7,695 nt of DNA, taken from NCBI GenBank assembly GCA_000004985.1, contig GG739116.1; one strand, given 5' to 3'. Each line of letters opens with the position of its first letter. The stretch's first letter is position 1. Made by a program: the position numbers and the translations under genes. The DNA comes from Naegleria gruberi. Taxonomy: Eukaryota. Shown here in pieces: positions 1 to 7,695 of this stretch. Under the pieces are notes generated by a model that did no database searches, was not told the DNA's origin, and saw only the letters and a list, made by a program, of their open reading frames with translations.

Positions 1-650
1 TGATTTGGATGCATTGGATAAACCTTTGTCTTGAAACAATTAGAAGCTTGAGTCAACTTTTCAACAATTGAAACAGTTCCTCCAGCTCTAACTTCACTTT
101 CGAATACAGCTTTTGCCTTTTCCTTCTCAACTGGAACAGCATCAACCAATTTACCATTCACTTCCATTGCATAACCCATCATGGTTGCTCCATCAGGCAT
201 TGGCAACACTAATTCACCTTCAATTGTTTTACCATGTGGACTATTAAATGTCATAGTAGAAACCACTTGAACAATAGGATAAGTAACATGACATTTAACA
301 TGATGAGAAACTAATGGCAACAGTGTGGATGCTTTATCGGAAAACTTCTCTCCAGTTACTTGGACATGAATAAAACTATCGGTTGGAAGATCCTTCTTGC
401 TGGTAGTAGTTGTGGTTGCAATTTCTTTTTTGTCATCGGTTGCATTTGTGGTTGTATTTGTAGTTGAACTAATTGATGGTTGACTTGTTTCTTTTGGTTT
501 GTCCAAAACTTCAGTTTTTGCTGGAGTTGTTGCTGTTGGTTGTTTGCTGGATGTTGTTTCTGTGTTGTTTGGTGTCGTTGATGATTTTTCAAGTTCACTT
601 ATTTCTTCATCGACAGCAGCTGCTGATTTCTTACTTTTAAAAAAGCCCAT
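1..650 (-). CDS. 5' part (216 codons, runs off window at pos 1) of a VIT-domain protein (vault protein inter-alpha-trypsin family; probably VIT + vWA architecture). Basic N-terminus MGFFKSKKS, a Thr/Ser-rich linker, then the VIT domain.
   Basis: Minus-strand reading frame from ATG (650-648) down to pos 3 has no stop, and was checked codon by codon. Translation: MGFFKSKKSAAAVDEEISELEKSSTTPNNTETTSSKQPTATTPAKTEVLDKPKETSQPSISSTTNTTTNATDDKKEIATTTTTSKKDLPTDSFIHVQVTGEKFSDKASTLLPLVSHHVKCHVTYPIVQVVSTMTFNSPHGKTIEGELVLPMPDGATMMGYAMEVNGKLVDAVPVEKEKAKAVFESEVRAGGTVSIVEKLTQASNCFKTKVYPMHPN. The stretch LP.PD.A.v.G.ame.nG..v...V.EKE.AKA.fE.....G...S.VE.......F...V matches the VIT domain pattern of ITIH/VWA5A/PARP4-type proteins. 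An in-frame stop lies about 30 codons upstream of the ATG with no other ATG between. The six-frame track omits this ORF because its stop is outside the window. The track ORFs 356..598(-), 499..699(+) and 599..829(-) are other-frame shadows of this gene. Confidence 0.75.
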   Translation of the reverse strand, partial: MGFFKSKKSAAAVDEEISELEKSSTTPNNTETTSSKQPTATTPAKTEVLDKPKETSQPSISSTTNTTTNATDDKKEIATTTTTSKKDLPTDSFIHVQVTGEKFSDKASTLLPLVSHHVKCHVTYPIVQVVSTMTFNSPHGKTIEGELVLPMPDGATMMGYAMEVNGKLVDAVPVEKEKAKAVFESEVRAGGTVSIVEKLTQASNCFKTKVYPMHPN

Positions 651-853
651 TTTTTTTGATTTTCTTGTGGTATGTTCATCTTGCCTGTTCTTTTTATGAT
701 CTGAAGGAAGAAGGATGTGTGAACATGATCCAGGGAGTTACGATTAGTTCTTGAGACCAAAAATTCAACAATGGCTTGTAAGCAAATGGGTAATAGATCA
801 AAATTAACGATAAAGTTAACTCCCTCCAAGCCATTTGATAATTTGTGATCAAA

Positions 854-860
854 GAAAAAA
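854..860 (-). terminator. RNA polymerase III terminator: T6 tract (TTTTTTC on minus strand), 5 nt past the tRNA discriminator base
   Basis: Plus strand gaaaaaa at 854-860 reads TTTTTTC on the tRNA strand, just downstream of the tRNA 3' end at 866. Confidence 0.55.
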
Positions 861-865
861 TTTAA

Positions 866-938
866 TGCTGACGGACGGGATCGAACCGGCGACCAATGGC
901 TTATTAGACCAACGCTCTACCGACTGAGCTACGCCAGC
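866..938 (-). tRNA. tRNA-Ile(AAU): tRNA-Ile, anticodon AAU (73 nt including discriminator A; no encoded CCA, no intron)
   Basis: Reverse complement of 866-938 is GCTGGCG TA GCTC AGTCGGTA GAGC G TTGGT CTAATAA GCCAT TGGTC GCCGG TTCGATC CCGTC CGTCAGC A. The acceptor stem is 7 bp with one G-U. The D arm carries a perfect A box (TAGCTCAGTCGG). The anticodon loop is C-U33-AAU-A37-A. The T arm carries a perfect B box (GGTTCGATCC). There are two non-Watson-Crick stem pairs: 27-43 U.U and 50-64 C.U. Confidence 0.8.
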
Positions 939-984
939 TTGCATTCTTCATTAAATACTTTAATAATTCTCTAATATAACAAAT

Positions 985-1118
985 CACGTAGCGCAGTCAT
1001 TTATAGCAACGTTTATTGAAAGAGCTACGTTACAATTTTATTGAATGTATCAATTTCAATTTTGAATTGAATTACATACCAACGCAATTAACGCAACGTT
1101 AAATGACTGCGCTACGTT
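985..1118. repeat. R1: ~132-bp palindromic, MITE-like element with ~18-33 bp imperfect terminal inverted repeats (acgtagcgcagtcattta ... taaatgactgcgctacgt) and internal hairpins (attga-atgta-tcaat; ttcaatt-ttg-aattgaa at 1055-1071)
   Basis: Left arm 986-1003 is the exact reverse complement of 1100-1117. The extended arms (986-1018 vs reverse complement of 1086-1118) match imperfectly. The paired motif GCAACGTT-N10-GCTACGTT occurs in both arms (1006/1024 and 1093/1111). Confidence 0.6.
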
Positions 1119-1173
1119 AAAATTTTATTTTTTTTAAAGAAAAGGATTATTATTTTTAAATTTAATTTTATCA

Positions 1174-1419
1174 ATGAAAATAGAATTTGATAAAAATTTT
1201 AATATTTATGAATTTAAAGAAAATGAACAAGAAAAAGTTTCACCAATAATTAAAGATTTTAAAGGAAAAAGATCAAAATATTTTCCAAATTTAAATAATA
1301 CATCATATTTATCAGTAGATCAAGTTGAAACAGATTATAGAGCTCAAGTTAATTTTGATCCAATTCATGCACATATTAAAACTAAAAGAAAAACTGGAAT
1401 GAAAATTGTAAATAAATAA
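1174..1419 (+). CDS. Hypothetical small protein of 81 aa, lysine-rich and basic at the C-terminus, sitting between R1 and R2. No recognisable domain.
   Basis: The ORF is complete (ATG ... TAA), MKIEFDKNFNIYEFKENEQEKVSPIIKDFKGKRSKYFPNLNNTSYLSVDQVETDYRAQVNFDPIHAHIKTKRKTGMKIVNK. An 81-codon open frame in roughly 22%-GC DNA is unlikely by chance (about 0.91^81). Third codon positions are almost all A/T, unlike the neighbouring VIT and Rac genes. A T/A-rich tract lies 50 bp upstream. No homology can be assessed without a search. Confidence 0.35.
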   Translation: MKIEFDKNFNIYEFKENEQEKVSPIIKDFKGKRSKYFPNLNNTSYLSVDQVETDYRAQVNFDPIHAHIKTKRKTGMKIVNK

Positions 1420-1421
1420 AT

Positions 1422-1556
1422 TAATTATAGCAACGTTTATTGAAAGAGCTACGTTACAATTTTATTGATAGAGAGCAATGTATCAATTTCAATTTTGAAT
1501 TGAATGACATACAAATTTAATTAACGCAACGTTAAATGACTGCGCTACGTTAAAAT
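1422..1556. repeat. R2: second copy of the R element (~90% identical to R1 over ~130 bp) with a 9-bp insertion (tagagagca). It lacks the outer 18 bp of the left TIR and starts immediately after the stop codon of the 81-aa ORF.
   Basis: R2 (1427-1556) aligns to R1 (1004-1122), sharing tatagcaacgtttattgaaagagctacgttacaattttattga ... atgtatcaatttcaattttgaattgaat ... ttaacgcaacgttaaatgactgcgctacgttaaaattt. The right-arm motif taaatgactgcgctacgt is present at 1533-1550. The left outer arm is absent. Confidence 0.6.
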
Positions 1557-1575
1557 TTAAAATTATTAAATATAA

Positions 1576-1598
1576 TACCGACTGAGCTACGCCAGCTT
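1576..1598 (-). repeat. Solo duplicated fragment of the tRNA-Ile gene: 2 nt of 5' flank plus tRNA nt 1-21 (acceptor 5' strand, D-stem 5' strand and D-loop, containing the A box). It is identical to 918-940.
   Basis: taccgactgagctacgccagctt occurs at 918-940 and again at 1576-1598 (23/23). The flanks diverge on both sides (c917 vs a1575; g941 vs c1599). Confidence 0.8.
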
Positions 1599-1781
1599 CA
1601 CAATTACCTATCCCCTTAATGAACTAGGCAAATACCTAATTTCCATCCAGCTTTTAGTAGGGAATTATAGAAGATGTCACATTTCCAAAGAACATCAGAA
1701 AACTTGCAAAAAAAATAGCAAACAAAGCAGACAAGATTTTGAAAATTAATTTCNGGAGGATGAACTATTCATCAATAAAAC

Positions 1782-1865
1782 ATGGAGAAAGCAAAAAAGA
1801 AAAAACTAGTGTCGCTTCAACGAGAAGAAATATTTTCCGATGATATTTGTTTTGAAATAATTTCC
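1782..1865 (+). CDS. N-terminus of an uncharacterised plus-strand gene (MEKAKKKKLVSLQREEIFSDDICFEIIS...) that continues into the N-masked block
   Basis: ATG at 1782 opens a frame with no stop through 28 codons until the N run starts. The upstream alternative ATG at 1760 hits a stop. Codon usage resembles the flanking genes. The rest of the gene cannot be read. Confidence 0.3.
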
Positions 1866-4800
1866 NNNNNNNNNNNNNNNNNNNNNNNNNNNNNNNNNNN
1901 NNNNNNNNNNNNNNNNNNNNNNNNNNNNNNNNNNNNNNNNNNNNNNNNNNNNNNNNNNNNNNNNNNNNNNNNNNNNNNNNNNNNNNNNNNNNNNNNNNNN
2001 NNNNNNNNNNNNNNNNNNNNNNNNNNNNNNNNNNNNNNNNNNNNNNNNNNNNNNNNNNNNNNNNNNNNNNNNNNNNNNNNNNNNNNNNNNNNNNNNNNNN
2101 NNNNNNNNNNNNNNNNNNNNNNNNNNNNNNNNNNNNNNNNNNNNNNNNNNNNNNNNNNNNNNNNNNNNNNNNNNNNNNNNNNNNNNNNNNNNNNNNNNNN
2201 NNNNNNNNNNNNNNNNNNNNNNNNNNNNNNNNNNNNNNNNNNNNNNNNNNNNNNNNNNNNNNNNNNNNNNNNNNNNNNNNNNNNNNNNNNNNNNNNNNNN
2301 NNNNNNNNNNNNNNNNNNNNNNNNNNNNNNNNNNNNNNNNNNNNNNNNNNNNNNNNNNNNNNNNNNNNNNNNNNNNNNNNNNNNNNNNNNNNNNNNNNNN
2401 NNNNNNNNNNNNNNNNNNNNNNNNNNNNNNNNNNNNNNNNNNNNNNNNNNNNNNNNNNNNNNNNNNNNNNNNNNNNNNNNNNNNNNNNNNNNNNNNNNNN
2501 NNNNNNNNNNNNNNNNNNNNNNNNNNNNNNNNNNNNNNNNNNNNNNNNNNNNNNNNNNNNNNNNNNNNNNNNNNNNNNNNNNNNNNNNNNNNNNNNNNNN
2601 NNNNNNNNNNNNNNNNNNNNNNNNNNNNNNNNNNNNNNNNNNNNNNNNNNNNNNNNNNNNNNNNNNNNNNNNNNNNNNNNNNNNNNNNNNNNNNNNNNNN
2701 NNNNNNNNNNNNNNNNNNNNNNNNNNNNNNNNNNNNNNNNNNNNNNNNNNNNNNNNNNNNNNNNNNNNNNNNNNNNNNNNNNNNNNNNNNNNNNNNNNNN
2801 NNNNNNNNNNNNNNNNNNNNNNNNNNNNNNNNNNNNNNNNNNNNNNNNNNNNNNNNNNNNNNNNNNNNNNNNNNNNNNNNNNNNNNNNNNNNNNNNNNNN
2901 NNNNNNNNNNNNNNNNNNNNNNNNNNNNNNNNNNNNNNNNNNNNNNNNNNNNNNNNNNNNNNNNNNNNNNNNNNNNNNNNNNNNNNNNNNNNNNNNNNNN
3001 NNNNNNNNNNNNNNNNNNNNNNNNNNNNNNNNNNNNNNNNNNNNNNNNNNNNNNNNNNNNNNNNNNNNNNNNNNNNNNNNNNNNNNNNNNNNNNNNNNNN
3101 NNNNNNNNNNNNNNNNNNNNNNNNNNNNNNNNNNNNNNNNNNNNNNNNNNNNNNNNNNNNNNNNNNNNNNNNNNNNNNNNNNNNNNNNNNNNNNNNNNNN
3201 NNNNNNNNNNNNNNNNNNNNNNNNNNNNNNNNNNNNNNNNNNNNNNNNNNNNNNNNNNNNNNNNNNNNNNNNNNNNNNNNNNNNNNNNNNNNNNNNNNNN
3301 NNNNNNNNNNNNNNNNNNNNNNNNNNNNNNNNNNNNNNNNNNNNNNNNNNNNNNNNNNNNNNNNNNNNNNNNNNNNNNNNNNNNNNNNNNNNNNNNNNNN
3401 NNNNNNNNNNNNNNNNNNNNNNNNNNNNNNNNNNNNNNNNNNNNNNNNNNNNNNNNNNNNNNNNNNNNNNNNNNNNNNNNNNNNNNNNNNNNNNNNNNNN
3501 NNNNNNNNNNNNNNNNNNNNNNNNNNNNNNNNNNNNNNNNNNNNNNNNNNNNNNNNNNNNNNNNNNNNNNNNNNNNNNNNNNNNNNNNNNNNNNNNNNNN
3601 NNNNNNNNNNNNNNNNNNNNNNNNNNNNNNNNNNNNNNNNNNNNNNNNNNNNNNNNNNNNNNNNNNNNNNNNNNNNNNNNNNNNNNNNNNNNNNNNNNNN
3701 NNNNNNNNNNNNNNNNNNNNNNNNNNNNNNNNNNNNNNNNNNNNNNNNNNNNNNNNNNNNNNNNNNNNNNNNNNNNNNNNNNNNNNNNNNNNNNNNNNNN
3801 NNNNNNNNNNNNNNNNNNNNNNNNNNNNNNNNNNNNNNNNNNNNNNNNNNNNNNNNNNNNNNNNNNNNNNNNNNNNNNNNNNNNNNNNNNNNNNNNNNNN
3901 NNNNNNNNNNNNNNNNNNNNNNNNNNNNNNNNNNNNNNNNNNNNNNNNNNNNNNNNNNNNNNNNNNNNNNNNNNNNNNNNNNNNNNNNNNNNNNNNNNNN
4001 NNNNNNNNNNNNNNNNNNNNNNNNNNNNNNNNNNNNNNNNNNNNNNNNNNNNNNNNNNNNNNNNNNNNNNNNNNNNNNNNNNNNNNNNNNNNNNNNNNNN
4101 NNNNNNNNNNNNNNNNNNNNNNNNNNNNNNNNNNNNNNNNNNNNNNNNNNNNNNNNNNNNNNNNNNNNNNNNNNNNNNNNNNNNNNNNNNNNNNNNNNNN
4201 NNNNNNNNNNNNNNNNNNNNNNNNNNNNNNNNNNNNNNNNNNNNNNNNNNNNNNNNNNNNNNNNNNNNNNNNNNNNNNNNNNNNNNNNNNNNNNNNNNNN
4301 NNNNNNNNNNNNNNNNNNNNNNNNNNNNNNNNNNNNNNNNNNNNNNNNNNNNNNNNNNNNNNNNNNNNNNNNNNNNNNNNNNNNNNNNNNNNNNNNNNNN
4401 NNNNNNNNNNNNNNNNNNNNNNNNNNNNNNNNNNNNNNNNNNNNNNNNNNNNNNNNNNNNNNNNNNNNNNNNNNNNNNNNNNNNNNNNNNNNNNNNNNNN
4501 NNNNNNNNNNNNNNNNNNNNNNNNNNNNNNNNNNNNNNNNNNNNNNNNNNNNNNNNNNNNNNNNNNNNNNNNNNNNNNNNNNNNNNNNNNNNNNNNNNNN
4601 NNNNNNNNNNNNNNNNNNNNNNNNNNNNNNNNNNNNNNNNNNNNNNNNNNNNNNNNNNNNNNNNNNNNNNNNNNNNNNNNNNNNNNNNNNNNNNNNNNNN
4701 NNNNNNNNNNNNNNNNNNNNNNNNNNNNNNNNNNNNNNNNNNNNNNNNNNNNNNNNNNNNNNNNNNNNNNNNNNNNNNNNNNNNNNNNNNNNNNNNNNNN

Positions 4801-6594
4801 NNNNNNNNNNNNNNNNNNNNNNNNNNNNNNNNNNNNNNNNNNNNNNNNNNNNNNNNNNNNNNNNNNNNNNNNNNNNNNNNNNNNNNNNNNNNNNNNNNNN
4901 NNNNNNNNNNNNNNNNNNNNNNNNNNNNNNNNNNNNNNNNNNNNNNNNNNNNNNNNNNNNNNNNNNNNNNNNNNNNNNNNNNNNNNNNNNNNNNNNNNNN
5001 NNNNNNNNNNNNNNNNNNNNNNNNNNNNNNNNNNNNNNNNNNNNNNNNNNNNNNNNNNNNNNNNNNNNNNNNNNNNNNNNNNNNNNNNNNNNNNNNNNNN
5101 NNNNNNNNNNNNNNNNNNNNNNNNNNNNNNNNNNNNNNNNNNNNNNNNNNNNNNNNNNNNNNNNNNNNNNNNNNNNNNNNNNNNNNNNNNNNNNNNNNNN
5201 NNNNNNNNNNNNNNNNNNNNNNNNNNNNNNNNNNNNNNNNNNNNNNNNNNNNNNNNNNNNNNNNNNNNNNNNNNNNNNNNNNNNNNNNNNNNNNNNNNNN
5301 NNNNNNNNNNNNNNNNNNNNNNNNNNNNNNNNNNNNNNNNNNNNNNNNNNNNNNNNNNNNNNNNNNNNNNNNNNNNNNNNNNNNNNNNNNNNNNNNNNNN
5401 NNNNNNNNNNNNNNNNNNNNNNNNNNNNNNNNNNNNNNNNNNNNNNNNNNNNNNNNNNNNNNNNNNNNNNNNNNNNNNNNNNNNNNNNNNNNNNNNNNNN
5501 NNNNNNNNNNNNNNNNNNNNNNNNNNNNNNNNNNNNNNNNNNNNNNNNNNNNNNNNNNNNNNNNNNNNNNNNNNNNNNNNNNNNNNNNNNNNNNNNNNNN
5601 NNNNNNNNNNNNNNNNNNNNNNNNNNNNNNNNNNNNNNNNNNNNNNNNNNNNNNNNNNNNNNNNNNNNNNNNNNNNNNNNNNNNNNNNNNNNNNNNNNNN
5701 NNNNNNNNNNNNNNNNNNNNNNNNNNNNNNNNNNNNNNNNNNNNNNNNNNNNNNNNNNNNNNNNNNNNNNNNNNNNNNNNNNNNNNNNNNNNNNNNNNNN
5801 NNNNNNNNNNNNNNNNNNNNNNNNNNNNNNNNNNNNNNNNNNNNNNNNNNNNNNNNNNNNNNNNNNNNNNNNNNNNNNNNNNNNNNNNNNNNNNNNNNNN
5901 NNNNNNNNNNNNNNNNNNNNNNNNNNNNNNNNNNNNNNNNNNNNNNNNNNNNNNNNNNNNNNNNNNNNNNNNNNNNNNNNNNNNNNNNNNNNNNNNNNNN
6001 NNNNNNNNNNNNNNNNNNNNNNNNNNNNNNNNNNNNNNNNNNNNNNNNNNNNNNNNNNNNNNNNNNNNNNNNNNNNNNNNNNNNNNNNNNNNNNNNNNNN
6101 NNNNNNNNNNNNNNNNNNNNNNNNNNNNNNNNNNNNNNNNNNNNNNNNNNNNNNNNNNNNNNNNNNNNNNNNNNNNNNNNNNNNNNNNNNNNNNNNNNNN
6201 NNNNNNNNNNNNNNNNNNNNNNNNNNNNNNNNNNNNNNNNNNNNNNNNNNNNNNNNNNNNNNNNNNNNNNNNNNNNNNNNNNNNNNNNNNNNNNNNNNNN
6301 NNNNNNNNNNNNNNNNNNNNNNNNNNNNNNNNNNNNNNNNNNNNNNNNNNNNNNNNNNNNNNNNNNNNNNNNNNNNNNNNNNNNNNNNNNNNNNNNNNNN
6401 NNNNNNNNNNNNNNNNNNNNNNNNNNNNNNNNNNNNNNNNNNNNNNNNNNNNNNNNNNNNNNNNNNNNNNNNNNNNNNNNNNNNNNNNNNNNNNNNNNNN
6501 NNNNNNNNNNNNNNNNNNNNNNNNNNNNNNNNNNNNNNNNNNNNNNNNNNNNNNNNNNNNNNNNNNNNNNNNNNNNNNNNNNNNNNNNNNNNNN
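1866..6594. other. 4729-bp run of N: an assembly gap or a deliberately masked segment. Nothing can be inferred from it.
   Basis: Uninterrupted n characters. The ORF-track entries 1782..6623(+), 1806..6638(-) and 1817..6631(-) are artefacts of translating N as X. Confidence 1.
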
Positions 6595-6998
6595 AAGGGA
6601 TATGCCAAATTGGTTTTTGCTGACCCTTCACATGGCATTTCTAAAAAGAAAAAGAAGTGATTACAAAGTGTTGGGATTGAAAGGTGTAAAGTGAAATAAT
6701 CGCAAAGTATCTCAAATAATTTGAAATCAGATTATTTCCTTGTTAGATAAGATATTGGTATCCATCATCTTTTTGTGGTTATTTCATTAATTTTCATAAT
6801 CATGATATTTCGAGAGATTGTATTGAGAAGAATTTGTTTGAATGAACATGGAACAAGATATGTCACCTGTTCATCTTCAAATTGAAAGTTCGACAGCAGT
6901 TAAAAACGCAAAATGAGGGATTTAATGAGTCGACTCTGAAGTGGCGGAAAGAATAATATACAGTAGAGAGGAGAAGTTATAATAATGGTTTCAATTGT

Positions 6999-7274
6999 TT
7001 ACAACAGACTACATTTGCCAGACTTCTTCTTTTCTGAGCTTTGATCTGGACTCTTTGGATCCAAAACACATTCGATAACATAGTTGAAAGTTTCCTTCAA
7101 TCCTTCTTGTGATTTAGCAGAACATTCCGAATAGTATTGAGCTCCAACTTCCTTGGCTACTTTTTGTCCTTCTTCTGAAGACACTACTTGTAATCCTTCT
7201 CTTTGAAGATAGTCTTTATCCTTACGAAGATCAGCCTTAGTTCCTGTGAGAACAATTGGCACTTTTGGACAGTG
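6999..7274 (-). CDS. Rac/Rho-family small GTPase, terminal exon (91 codons + stop): HCPKVPIVLTGTKADLRKDKDYLQREGLQVVSSEEGQKVAKEVGAQYYSECSAKSQEGLKETFNYVIECVLDPKSPDQSSEKKKSGKCSLL*
   Basis: Contains the G4 motif TKxD (TGTKADLR), the G5 motif ECSAK, a polybasic stretch and the CaaX box CSLL directly before TAA (7001-6999). Acceptor AG (plus-strand ct 7275-7276) preceded by tttaaatag. Reading frame is continuous with the upstream exon, giving ...PEVKH|HCPK... Confidence 0.85.
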   Translation of the reverse strand, partial: HCPKVPIVLTGTKADLRKDKDYLQREGLQVVSSEEGQKVAKEVGAQYYSECSAKSQEGLKETFNYVIECVLDPKSPDQSSEKKKSGKCSLL

Positions 7275-7394
7275 CTATTTAAATAATAAAGTTGTTTGTT
7301 TGTTTACATGCATGTAACAACAGATATGTTCAACATGTTGTTAAAAGTATAAAGAATAAATAAATCTTTTCAAGTGGTGTAGAGTACTACTTAC

Positions 7395-7515
7395 ATGTTT
7401 AACTTCCGGAACCCACTTGGCCTTTACGTTCATTAAACTTGTATGATTGACAACAGAGAAGCAGACGAGGAAAACTTGAGCATCAGGATAAGACAATGGT
7501 CGCAAACGATCATAG
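7395..7515 (-). CDS. Rac/Rho-family GTPase, internal exon (121 nt, phase 2 to 0): (D)[40 protein letters not shown]
   Basis: Flanked by an acceptor ...aataattttcag and a donor gtaagtag. Intron 7275-7394 is 120 bp and intron 7516-7615 is 100 bp, both AT-rich. [20 protein letters not shown] and KWVPEV are near-invariant Rac/Cdc42 blocks. Confidence 0.85.
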
Positions 7516-7615
7516 CTGAAAATTATTTAGCCTAAAAATTCTTCTACTAGAAGATTACTTACTCACTATTAGAAAGTACAATAAATATTGTTGATGAAAA
7601 TTTGAAATTACTTAC

Positions 7616-7695
7616 TCTTGACCAGCTGTATCCCACAAACCCAAAGATACTGTTGTATTCTTGTACATTACGTTAGCAGACGTATTTCACAAAAA
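7616..7695 (-). CDS. Rac/Rho-family GTPase, upstream exon (partial): ...NTSANVMYKNTTVSLGLWDTAGQE followed by donor GTAAGT. An in-frame TGA (7689-7687) lies 7 codons before SANVM, so the true 5' limit is unresolved.
   Basis: The exon ends in ...ggt caa ga|gtaagtaat, a phase-2 donor that joins to c-tat-gat in the next exon. LGLWDTAGQE is the Rac-type G3 switch II motif. SANVM + 7 residues + LGLW has the same spacing as Rac1 (YSANVMVDGKPVNLGLW). The stop codon and the absence of any AG between 7695 and 7669 are anomalous. Confidence 0.7.

What the first reader, a model, noticed from the sequence alone, without database searches (positions are those of the whole stretch)
941..1598. tRNA-flanked composite cassette: two TIR-bearing ~132-bp elements bracket an 81-aa ORF, bounded by a 23-bp duplication of the tRNA 5' end
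Directly upstream of the tRNA-Ile gene lies a 635-bp block (941-1575) that is far more AT-rich than the surrounding genes. It is internally organised as [R1 985-1118] - 55-bp T/A tract - [ORF 1174-1419] - [R2 1422-1556]. Its outer termini are near-symmetric: tttaataatt + 17-nt spacer + acgtagcgcagtcattta on the left, and the reverse complement of both motifs on the right. The block is bounded on one side by the tRNA 5' end and on the other by an exact 23-bp copy of that end (918-940 = 1576-1598). Beyond the copy the sequence returns to ordinary intergenic composition. One reading is a single insertion event, either a non-autonomous element carrying a small cargo gene or a tRNA-gene-targeted element, that duplicated its target. 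Another reading is a segmental rearrangement seeded by the tRNA gene. I do not recognise this architecture (palindromic TIR element duplicated around a small AT-biased ORF, abutting a tRNA 5' fragment) as a described element family.
Basis: seen in the sequence. Interest (0 to 1): 0.72.

Follow-up and report, generated by a model that had tools for sequence, protein, structure and literature searches.

The report
AT-rich insertion splitting a tRNA-Ile gene start
A 635-base, very AT-rich piece of DNA carrying one small orphan gene sits inside the first 21 bases of a Naegleria gruberi isoleucine tRNA gene, flanked by an exact 23-base duplication that keeps the tRNA intact; it looks like one insertion event, possibly by a tRNA-targeting mobile element, but only one copy could be examined.

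Summary
The window is a complete 7,695-bp scaffold of Naegleria gruberi, and it is a second assembled copy of a locus on a 362-kb scaffold.

Confirmed:
- An intact tRNA-Ile(AAU) gene lies at 866-938 (minus strand).
- An exact 23-bp direct repeat (918-940 = 1576-1598) covers tRNA bases 1-21 plus 2 upstream bases.
- It brackets a 635-bp block at 22% GC, against 32-37% in the flanks.
- The 81-codon ORF has strong coding periodicity (GC 35/22/2% by codon position) and no detectable homologue.

Corrected:
- Only R1 (986-1117) is a hairpin with 18-bp perfect inverted arms.
- "R2" is a direct copy of R1's right 125 bp and lacks the left arm.
- The claimed symmetric outer termini do not hold (spacers of 17 and 10 nt).

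New: the 18-bp arms lie 45 and 25 bp inside the block, and their region resembles tRNA-Ile positions 6-47 (p≈0.003-0.016).

Best reading: a single insertion with target duplication, plausibly a non-autonomous or relic tRNA-gene-specific element. It works somewhat like Dada transposons but fails their 6-7-bp duplication test.

The parts
866..938 (-). Intact nuclear-type tRNA-Ile(AAU) gene; its 5' end faces the cassette. A T-run lies just past its 3' end on the minus strand.
   Evidence: ARAGORN; Rfam RF00005, 59.9 bits, full length 1-71; sequence read.
918..940 (.). Left copy of the exact 23-bp direct repeat: tRNA bases 1-21 plus 2 bases upstream of the tRNA.
   Evidence: the repeat finder family D4, 100% identity; boundary bases differ on both sides.
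941..1575 (+). Inserted AT-rich cassette, 635 bp, 22.4% GC.
   Evidence: Composition profile and per-segment GC; no match in plasmid or phage records.
986..1117 (.). R1: a 132-nt hairpin with perfect 18-bp inverted arms (986-1003 and 1100-1117); arm complementarity extends to 33 nt at 82%.
   Evidence: the repeat finder I2; DNA fold -30.1 kcal/mol, z = -6.4, 0 of 200 shuffles as good. No flanking target duplication around R1 (sequence).
1001..1125 (+). Direct-repeat copy 1 (the part of R1 that is repeated after the ORF). On the minus strand, 1117 to about 1070 resembles tRNA-Ile positions 6-47.
   Evidence: Families D1/D2; pairwise alignment A1; tRNA similarity 31/43, p = 0.003-0.016 against 2,000 dinucleotide shuffles.
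1118..1173 (+). T/A tract upstream of the ORF, 7% GC.
1174..1419 (+). 81-aa orphan ORF, lysine-rich and basic. GC by codon position is 35/22/2%. AATAAA overlaps the stop codon.
   Evidence: Length p = 0.005 against shuffles. Periodicity chi-square p = 1.5e-6. No hit in Pfam, PHROGs, NCBIfam or PDB, in 5.8e9 clustered proteins, or in a full HMMER search of 1.84e9 representatives.
1425..1558 (+). Direct-repeat copy 2 ('R2'): equals R1 positions 1001-1125 with a 9-bp insertion. It carries the right arm (1533-1550) but no left arm.
   Evidence: it folds no better than shuffles (z = -0.6).
1533..1550 (-). Right subterminal arm, 25 bp inside the right junction. It is the inverted partner of 986-1003, which lies 45 bp inside the left junction (35 nt, 80% complementary).
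   Evidence: the repeat finder I1; motif positions.
1576..1598 (.). Right copy of the 23-bp repeat: an orphan 21-nt tRNA-Ile 5' stub plus 2 bases. Host-like sequence follows (CACAATTACC...).

Best explanation
A single event inserted about 635 bp of AT-rich DNA into the 5' end of a nuclear tRNA-Ile gene of Naegleria gruberi. The inserted DNA carries its own small gene.

The joining duplicated 23 bp of target, from 2 bp upstream of the tRNA to base 21 at the end of the D-loop. As a result a complete tRNA gene survives on one side and a dead 21-nt stub remains on the other. This much is close to shown by the sequence.

Inferred: the insert is a non-autonomous or relic copy of a DNA element that specifically uses tRNA-Ile genes as a safe landing site. 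It would be moved by an enzyme encoded elsewhere. That enzyme would recognise the 18-bp subterminal inverted arms (ACGTAGCGCAGTCATTTA). Their core, CGTAGCGCAGTC, matches the box-A region of the target, CGTAGCTCAGTC, at 11 of 12 positions.

The 23-bp repeat would then be one of two things:
- an unusually long staggered-cut duplication; or
- the identity core of a site-specific (att-like) recombination between a small circle and the tRNA gene.

The internal 1.3-unit direct repeat is compatible with a circular or concatemeric precursor.

The confidence of 0.45 is for the whole statement, including the mobile-element part. The insertion-with-duplication part alone I put at about 0.8.
For: - The 23-bp repeat is exact and coincides with the composition boundaries.
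- The tRNA is full-length and high-scoring.
- The ORF shows real coding periodicity. Its GC3 is 2%, against 22-27% in the two flanking host genes, so it did not evolve under those genes' codon usage.
- The inverted 18-bp arms lie near both ends (I1). The very ends are not inverted repeats of each other.
- The arm region is significantly similar to the target tRNA.
- The hexamer GCTACG occurs at 928, 1024, 1111, 1448, 1544 and 1586, inverted at 987, and nowhere else in 1-1865.
- N. gruberi has about 924 tDNAs, so the target is multicopy (PMC2888827).
- Dada transposons set a precedent. They are eukaryotic DNA transposons inside tRNA genes, including tRNA-Ile at box A. They have no terminal inverted repeats, but have subterminal ones that echo a motif in the target (PMC3706591).
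- The window is a separately assembled near-identical copy of the VIT-Rho interval of a 362-kb scaffold. That is what a haplotype-specific insertion could produce; this point is inferred.
Against: - Only one copy is known.
- No relative of the arms, of R1 or of the ORF was found in viral contigs, metagenome contigs, prokaryotic genomes, plasmids or phages.
- No transposase or recombinase is present.
- I know of no eukaryotic DNA-transposon superfamily with a 23-bp duplication (own knowledge; Dada makes 6-7 bp).
- The tRNA similarity of the arms is modest. The Rfam tRNA model does not score them at E<=10.
- Extreme AT-richness alone does not prove foreign origin. A related heterolobosean, Willaertia, has native intergenic tracts of 4-12% GC (L015:1-1400).
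Confidence: 0.45

Rival explanations
1. One-off capture of foreign or filler DNA (for example viral or episomal) during repair of a staggered break in the tRNA gene. No dedicated mobility machinery and no family are involved. The arms and internal repeat are simply features of the donor DNA.
For: - The ORF is an orphan with codon usage unlike the neighbouring genes.
- No second copy was found anywhere reachable.
- tRNA genes are known fragile and insertion-prone sites (general knowledge).
Against: - A 23-nt stagger filled in exactly on both sides is not typical of end-joining capture.
- The similarity between the insert's arms and the very tRNA segment that was duplicated would be a coincidence.
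- The mitochondrial genome is an unlikely donor. A 635-bp piece of that compact genome would probably overlap an annotated gene, yet nothing matches.
- The rDNA plasmid is an unlikely donor. Its non-rDNA part is 36.7% GC (PMC5805870), against 22% here.
Confidence: 0.25
2. Local rearrangement with no foreign DNA. Repeated duplication, fold-back and decay of the 5' part of the tRNA gene at a fragile site produced an exact stub, older diverged tRNA-like pieces (the arms and the 44-nt sub-repeats) and AT-rich spacer. The ORF is either a native small gene or fortuitous.
For: - The cassette contains four direct and one inverted tRNA-5'-like segments.
- R1 (33% GC) is compositionally host-like.
- Heterolobosean genomes can hold native, extremely AT-rich tracts.
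Against: - The outermost stub is the perfect one, while the inner tRNA-like pieces are diverged. Successive duplications next to the gene would give the opposite order.
- Identity stops abruptly after 23 bp on both sides.
- The ORF's three-base periodicity (p = 1.5e-6) and length (p = 0.005) argue that it is or recently was a gene. Its GC3 is unlike the host neighbours.
Confidence: 0.15
3. Retroposition. An RNA (the ORF transcript with its hairpins) was copied into a nick in the tRNA gene by a LINE-type reverse transcriptase, which can give long, variable target duplications.
For: - A 23-bp duplication is within the range seen for target-primed reverse transcription (general knowledge).
- The right end is A/T-rich (…AAATTATTAAATATAA).
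- AATAAA lies at the ORF stop.
Against: - There is no poly(A) or simple-repeat tail abutting the duplication.
- No LINE-derived or Pol III promoter module is present, and no hammerhead or tRNA hit falls in the cassette at E<=10.
- The direct repeat flanking the ORF and the inverted arms are not explained.
Confidence: 0.07
4. Assembly or cloning artefact in a small, gap-containing draft scaffold.
For: The window is a 7.7-kb scaffold with a 4.7-kb gap. It duplicates a locus present on a large scaffold.
Against: - A chimeric join makes one junction. It does not make two junctions with an exact 23-bp repeat that restores a complete tRNA gene.
- The cassette matches no plasmid or phage sequence.
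Confidence: 0.03

Closest known systems
Dada superfamily of target-specific DNA transposons (Kojima & Jurka 2013, PMC3706591)
   Same: - Eukaryotic DNA elements found inside multicopy small-RNA genes, including tRNA-Ile at the box-A sequence TAGCTC in Perkinsus.
- No inverted repeats at the very termini, but short subterminal inverted repeats whose motif also occurs in the target gene.
- Internally deleted non-autonomous derivatives exist.
- Here there are subterminal 18-bp arms whose core matches the target's box-A region at 11 of 12 positions.
   Different: - Dada makes 6-7-bp duplications and splits the target gene. Here 23 bp are duplicated and the tRNA stays whole.
- No DDE transposase or zinc-finger protein is present.
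- Dada subterminal repeats are 7-9 bp, not 18 bp.
- Dada was not listed for Naegleria (Table 1).
Integrase-mediated islands, proviruses and casposons that integrate into tRNA genes of bacteria and archaea (general knowledge)
   Same: - A direct repeat identical to part of a tRNA gene flanks the insert, and the gene is regenerated.
- The insert is compositionally distinct and carries orphan genes.
- Recombinase-binding repeats lie near the ends.
   Different: - Those systems are prokaryotic.
- They nearly always use the 3' part of the tRNA gene.
- They encode the integrase next to the att site.
- Here the host is a eukaryote, the 5' 21 nt are used, and no enzyme gene is present.
MITEs (miniature inverted-repeat elements)
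   Same: R1 is 132 bp with perfect 18-bp inverted ends. It weakly resembles MITE-like miRNA precursor hairpins in Rfam (MIR4372, 29.8 bits against a gathering score of 100).
   Different: - R1 has no target duplication of its own.
- The arms do not abut the 23-bp repeat.
- No other copy was seen.
TRIM / Helenus (TRIMp3) non-autonomous LTR elements with tRNA-like LTRs (Kojima 2024, PMC10886601)
   Same: Two direct repeats of 125-134 bp containing a tRNA-like stretch flank a roughly 300-bp interior.
   Different: - There are no TG…CA repeat ends.
- There is no primer-binding site or polypurine tract next to the repeats (sequence).
- The duplication is 23 bp, not 4-5 bp.

Membership tests
Dada DNA transposons | Encodes a DDE transposase with CCCC and CCHC zinc fingers, or is an internal-deletion derivative sharing termini with such an element | tested here: not met
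   The only ORF (81 aa) has no Pfam, NCBIfam, PHROG or HMMER homologue. No autonomous partner could be searched for in the N. gruberi genome.
Dada DNA transposons | 6-7-bp target-site duplication | tested here: not met
   The duplication is exactly 23 bp.
Dada DNA transposons | No terminal inverted repeats, but short subterminal inverted repeats | tested here: met
   The ends GCATTCTTC… and …AAATATAA are not inverted copies of each other. The 18-bp arms lie 45 and 25 bp inside the block.
Dada DNA transposons | [quoted passage not shown] | tested here: inconclusive
   The target has CGTAGCTCAGTC (11 of 12 identical to the arm core), but it lies inside the duplicated 23 bp rather than at a matching offset.
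Dada DNA transposons | Several copies, each in the same site of the same small-RNA gene family | not testable with these tools
   The N. gruberi assembly is not in the look-up index. Scans of other collections were negative.
TIR DNA transposon / MITE | Terminal inverted repeats directly abutting a short (2-11 bp) target duplication | tested here: not met
   The arms are subterminal to the 23-bp repeat. R1's own arms have no flanking duplication (…ACAAATC | TAAAATT…).
Tyrosine-recombinase integrative element (att-type) | Direct repeats identical to a segment of the target tRNA gene, with the gene regenerated | tested here: met
Tyrosine-recombinase integrative element (att-type) | Recombinase gene within the element | tested here: not met
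   The cassette is 635 bp with a single 81-aa orphan ORF.
Tyrosine-recombinase integrative element (att-type) | Excised circular form or an empty attB allele | not testable with these tools
   This needs the other haplotype (the 362-kb scaffold), other strains or reads.
TRIM / Helenus | LTRs with TG…CA ends, a PBS after the 5' LTR, a PPT before the 3' LTR, and a 4-5-bp duplication | tested here: not met
   The repeats begin TTATAGC and end …AAAATTT. No TGG-type PBS follows either repeat. The duplication is 23 bp.
SINE / LINE-mediated retrocopy | 3' A-rich or simple-repeat tail next to the duplication, and an internal Pol III promoter or LINE tail | tested here: not met
   No such tail is present. 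No tRNA, 5S or 7SL hit falls inside the cassette at E<=10.
Organelle- or rDNA-plasmid-derived insert (NUMT / CERE) | Sequence identity to the mitochondrial genome or the rDNA plasmid | tested here: inconclusive
   The ORF matches no known protein, including organelle proteins. The rDNA plasmid's non-rDNA part is 36.7% GC. A direct DNA comparison was not possible.

The most novel reading that the evidence does not exclude
N. gruberi harbours a previously undescribed class of eukaryotic integrative element, possibly of viral or plasmid origin, that homes to the first 21 bases of tRNA-Ile genes. The element regenerates the gene through a 23-bp att-like repeat. It is recognised through tRNA-mimicking subterminal arms. 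The copy here is a miniature that is mobilised in trans. This would be a eukaryotic counterpart of prokaryotic tRNA-integrating islands, using the 5' rather than the 3' end of the gene.
Probability: 0.15. Interest if true: 0.75.

Novelty: new variant of a known kind. Interest (0 to 1): 0.5.

Why it matters
Target-specific DNA elements in eukaryotic tRNA genes are rare; Dada is the only described superfamily. None is known to preserve the target gene by a long duplication.

If this cassette belongs to a family, it would show a new way for selfish DNA to occupy the roughly 900 tRNA genes of Naegleria without cost. It would also point to an unknown enzyme with a 20+ bp recognition site. And it would supply a marker for haplotype and strain history in a genus that includes a human pathogen.

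If it is single-copy, it is a tidy example of foreign-DNA capture at a tRNA gene and little more.

Tried and rejected
Homology of the ORF:
- Pfam, PHROGs, NCBIfam and PDB gave nothing.
- The word-indexed search of 5.8e9 proteins gave nothing.
- Full HMMER against 1.84e9 representatives gave nothing.
- The exact-protein look-up gave nothing.
- The single-sequence AlphaFold model had pLDDT 54, so I ran no fold search.

DNA relatives:
- The 23-mer and the two-arm gapped pattern found nothing in viral contigs.
- The ORF found nothing in viral contigs.
- The 18-mer arm gave 4 hits in metagenome contigs with no flanking similarity, so they are chance.
- The 20-mer and the two-arm pattern found nothing in prokaryotic genomes.
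- Plasmid and phage BLAST found nothing.
- A full-text search for the arm sequences found no paper.
- The tRNA stub occurs in viral contigs only as part of complete phage tRNA genes.

Empty-site test:
- I found the allelic genes on the 362-kb scaffold, but N. gruberi is not in the contig index.
- The N. fowleri and Willaertia orthologous Rho loci are not syntenic and hold no cassette.

Structural ideas rejected:
- TRIM/Helenus: no PBS, no PPT, no TG..CA ends.
- Retrozyme or Penelope-like pseudo-LTR: no hammerhead hit.
- A primer-binding site complementary to the tRNA 5' end: the match includes 2 non-tRNA bases and lies next to the gene itself.
- The loop spanning a hypothetical circle junction is not homologous to the R1 interior.
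- The imperfect inverted repeat 939-954/1616-1631 is within the chance range of the repeat list.
- ARAGORN finds a 'tRNA-Ala' at 1047-1122 (relaxed 80% threshold) and an 'mtRNA-Leu' at 1022-1097 (default mitochondrial mode). I do not trust these, because the relaxed mitochondrial mode 'tRNAs' in the 801 nt scanned (850-1650).
Full report
**Where the window comes from.** The minus-strand ORF at 3-650 is 100% identical to 'predicted protein, partial [Naegleria gruberi]', which lies on a contig of 7,695 bp, exactly the window length. The window is therefore a whole small scaffold of the N. gruberi NEG-M draft. The N run 1866-6594 is a scaffold gap.

That partial protein clusters with a 1,222-aa N. 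gruberi protein, EFC41554.1 (NAEGRDRAFT_80675), on a 362,555-bp scaffold. The two differ at one residue in 209. The Rho-family GTPase at the other end of the window equals EFC41555.1, the next accession on the same large scaffold. The window is thus a second, separately assembled copy of the VIT-Rho interval, most simply the other haplotype. None of the N. gruberi gene models tried (P0001, P0004, P0126) was on record in the exact-protein index, so the large scaffold could not be read.

**Checking the observation.**
- The tRNA is real: ARAGORN finds tRNA-Ile(AAT) at 866-938 on the minus strand, and the Rfam tRNA model gives 59.9 bits over its full length.
- The 23-bp repeat is exact (918-940 = 1576-1598) and ends sharply on both sides. 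About 6e-8 such pairs are expected by chance.
- On the tRNA strand the repeat is AA + GCTGGCGTAGCTCAGTCGGTA. That is two upstream bases plus tRNA bases 1-21, ending at the last base of the D-loop.
- The block between the repeats is 22.4% GC. Flanking coding and non-coding DNA is 28-37%.
- R1 (986-1117) has perfect 18-bp inverted arms and folds at -30.1 kcal/mol (z = -6.4).

Two details of the finding are wrong.
- 'R2' is not a second inverted-repeat element. The alignment shows that homology with R1 begins only at 1001/1425, after R1's left arm. It runs 44 nt at 100%, has a 9-bp indel, then about 89% identity to about 1125/1558. R2 does not fold better than shuffles (z = -0.6).
- The claimed symmetric outer motif has spacers of 17 and 10 nt.

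The true layout is:
- left end (45 bp);
- arm A;
- repeat unit copy 1, which ends in arm A';
- a 7%-GC tract;
- the ORF;
- repeat unit copy 2, which ends in arm A';
- right end (25 bp).

This equals about 1.3 copies of a 424-433-bp unit. The outer pair A (986-1003) and A' (1533-1550) forms subterminal inverted repeats of the whole block (I1).

**The ORF.** An 81-codon ORF is longer than expected in this composition (p = 0.005). GC by codon position is 35/22/2% (chi-square p = 1.5e-6), the signature of a sequence shaped by coding constraint under strong AT pressure. The two host genes in the window have GC3 of 22-27%; the probability of 2 or fewer G/C among 81 third positions at 22% is 5e-7. 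The protein has no detectable relative:
- Pfam, PHROGs, NCBIfam and PDB;
- 5.8 billion clustered proteins;
- 1.84 billion representatives with full HMMER.

A single-sequence structure model is uninformative (pLDDT 54). The ORF is therefore a real or recently real orphan gene. Its composition fits neither its neighbours nor the rDNA plasmid, whose non-rDNA part is 36.7% GC (PMC5805870). A mitochondrial origin is unlikely. A 635-bp piece of that compact genome should overlap a known protein, and nothing matches.

One caveat: a Willaertia locus fetched for synteny contains a native 1.4-kb tract of 4-12% GC. Extreme AT-richness of non-coding DNA alone does not show foreign origin in this group.

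**A link between insert and target.** The arm core CGTAGCGCAGTC differs at one base from tRNA positions 6-17, CGTAGCTCAGTC (box A), which lie inside the duplicated 23 bp. Read on the tRNA strand, the arm region of R1 aligns with tRNA positions 6-47 at 31/43 identity. This is better than dinucleotide shuffles of R1 under three scoring schemes (p = 0.003, 0.016, 0.011). The 44-nt sub-repeats (family D1) carry the exact octamer GAGCTACG of the tRNA. GCTACG occurs six times between 928 and 1586 in one orientation, once inverted, and nowhere else in 1-1865. The signal is modest. The copies are not independent, and the Rfam tRNA model does not score the cassette at E<=10. It is still the one feature that ties the insert to this particular target.

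**Search for relatives.** Nothing similar to the arms, R1, the cassette or the ORF was found in:
- IMG/VR viral contigs;
- JGI metagenome contigs, where 4 hits to the 18-mer have unrelated flanks;
- GTDB genomes;
- plasmids or phages;
- the text of held papers.

The orthologous Rho loci of N. fowleri and Willaertia magna are not syntenic and contain neither a tRNA-Ile stub nor arm-like sequences. Copy number in N. gruberi and the state of the allelic site therefore remain untested.

**Interpretation.** Three features together are best explained by one insertion of pre-existing DNA with duplication of the target (I put this part at about 0.8):
- an exact long repeat at the composition boundaries;
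- regeneration of a complete tRNA gene;
- a gene with alien codon usage inside.

How it was inserted is inferred. Ordinary cut-and-paste transposition does not fit, because the inverted arms do not abut the repeat and I know of no superfamily that makes a 23-bp duplication. LTR/TRIM, SINE/LINE and retrozyme models each fail a defining feature (see the membership table).

Two models remain.
- A target-specific transposase makes an unusually wide staggered cut.
- An att-type recombination occurs between a small circular form and the tRNA gene across a 23-bp identity. In such a circle the two outer arms would flank the core in inverted orientation, 93 bp apart. The 1.3-unit internal repeat would be natural for a circular or concatemeric precursor. 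The loop spanning that junction shows no homology to the R1 interior.

**Closest described analogue.** This is the Dada superfamily. Dada elements are eukaryotic DNA transposons inside tRNA and snRNA genes. They have no terminal inverted repeats but have subterminal ones that echo a motif in the target. One Perkinsus family inserts in box A of tRNA-Ile (PMC3706591). This cassette works like that in outline but is not a member on present evidence. The duplication is 23 bp, not 6-7 bp. The gene is preserved, not split. No transposase is present.

**Rivals.** These are one-off capture of foreign DNA at a break (0.25), a purely local rearrangement of the tRNA 5' region (0.15), retroposition (0.07) and an artefact (0.03).

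**Verdict.** The feature is real and sharply defined. Whether it represents a mobile family, which is the interesting claim, is open. It can be settled quickly with a BLAST against the N. gruberi genome and a look at the allelic site between EFC41554.1 and EFC41555.1. N. gruberi repeats are largely unclassified (PMC12344493), and the genome has about 924 tDNAs (PMC2888827), so an undescribed tRNA-targeting element is plausible. I score interest at 0.5.

Noticed in passing
window 1-7695 (whole): The window is an entire 7,695-bp N. gruberi scaffold with a 4.7-kb gap. It duplicates, at about 99.5-100% protein identity, two adjacent genes (EFC41554.1 VIT-domain protein, EFC41555.1 Rho GTPase) of a 362,555-bp scaffold. 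It is probably the alternate haplotype, left unmerged by the assembler.
   Followed up: partly
window 3-650 (-) and 6999-7695 (-): The flanking host genes are the N-terminus of a VIT-domain protein (Pfam VIT, E = 3.7e-22) and a Rho-family GTPase with at least three introns. The VIT copy differs from the main-scaffold allele by a K-to-Q change at residue 53.
   Followed up: yes
window 1782-1865 (+): An ATG-initiated reading frame (MEKAKKKKLVSLQREEIFSDDICFEIIS…) runs into the gap. On the main scaffold no protein accession lies between the VIT and Rho genes, so this may be unannotated or not a gene.
   Followed up: no
window 1616-1685 (+): A weak Rfam match to mitochondrial tmRNA (24.2 bits against a gathering score of 65, E = 0.17) lies just outside the right repeat. 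It is most likely chance.
   Followed up: no
window 939-954 and 1616-1631: An imperfect inverted repeat (13/16) lies just outside or overlapping the two copies of the 23-bp repeat. It is within the range of chance pairs listed for this AT-rich region.
   Followed up: partly
L015:1-1400 (Willaertia magna JBEGDK010000074.1): A native intergenic tract of 4-12% GC extends over at least 1.4 kb next to ordinary genes. Heterolobosean nuclear genomes can therefore contain extremely AT-rich islands. This weakens composition alone as evidence of foreign DNA.
   Followed up: partly
L007 (ENA metagenome ERZ929261, contig k127_16536): A 1.3-kb environmental metagenome contig encodes the C-terminal 91 aa of the N. 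gruberi VIT protein, with its last 81 aa identical to the N. gruberi protein. N. gruberi or a very close strain is therefore present in that sample, which could be mined for the tRNA locus.
   Followed up: no
window 1754: A single ambiguous base (n) lies in otherwise clean sequence, consistent with draft-quality Sanger consensus.
   Followed up: no
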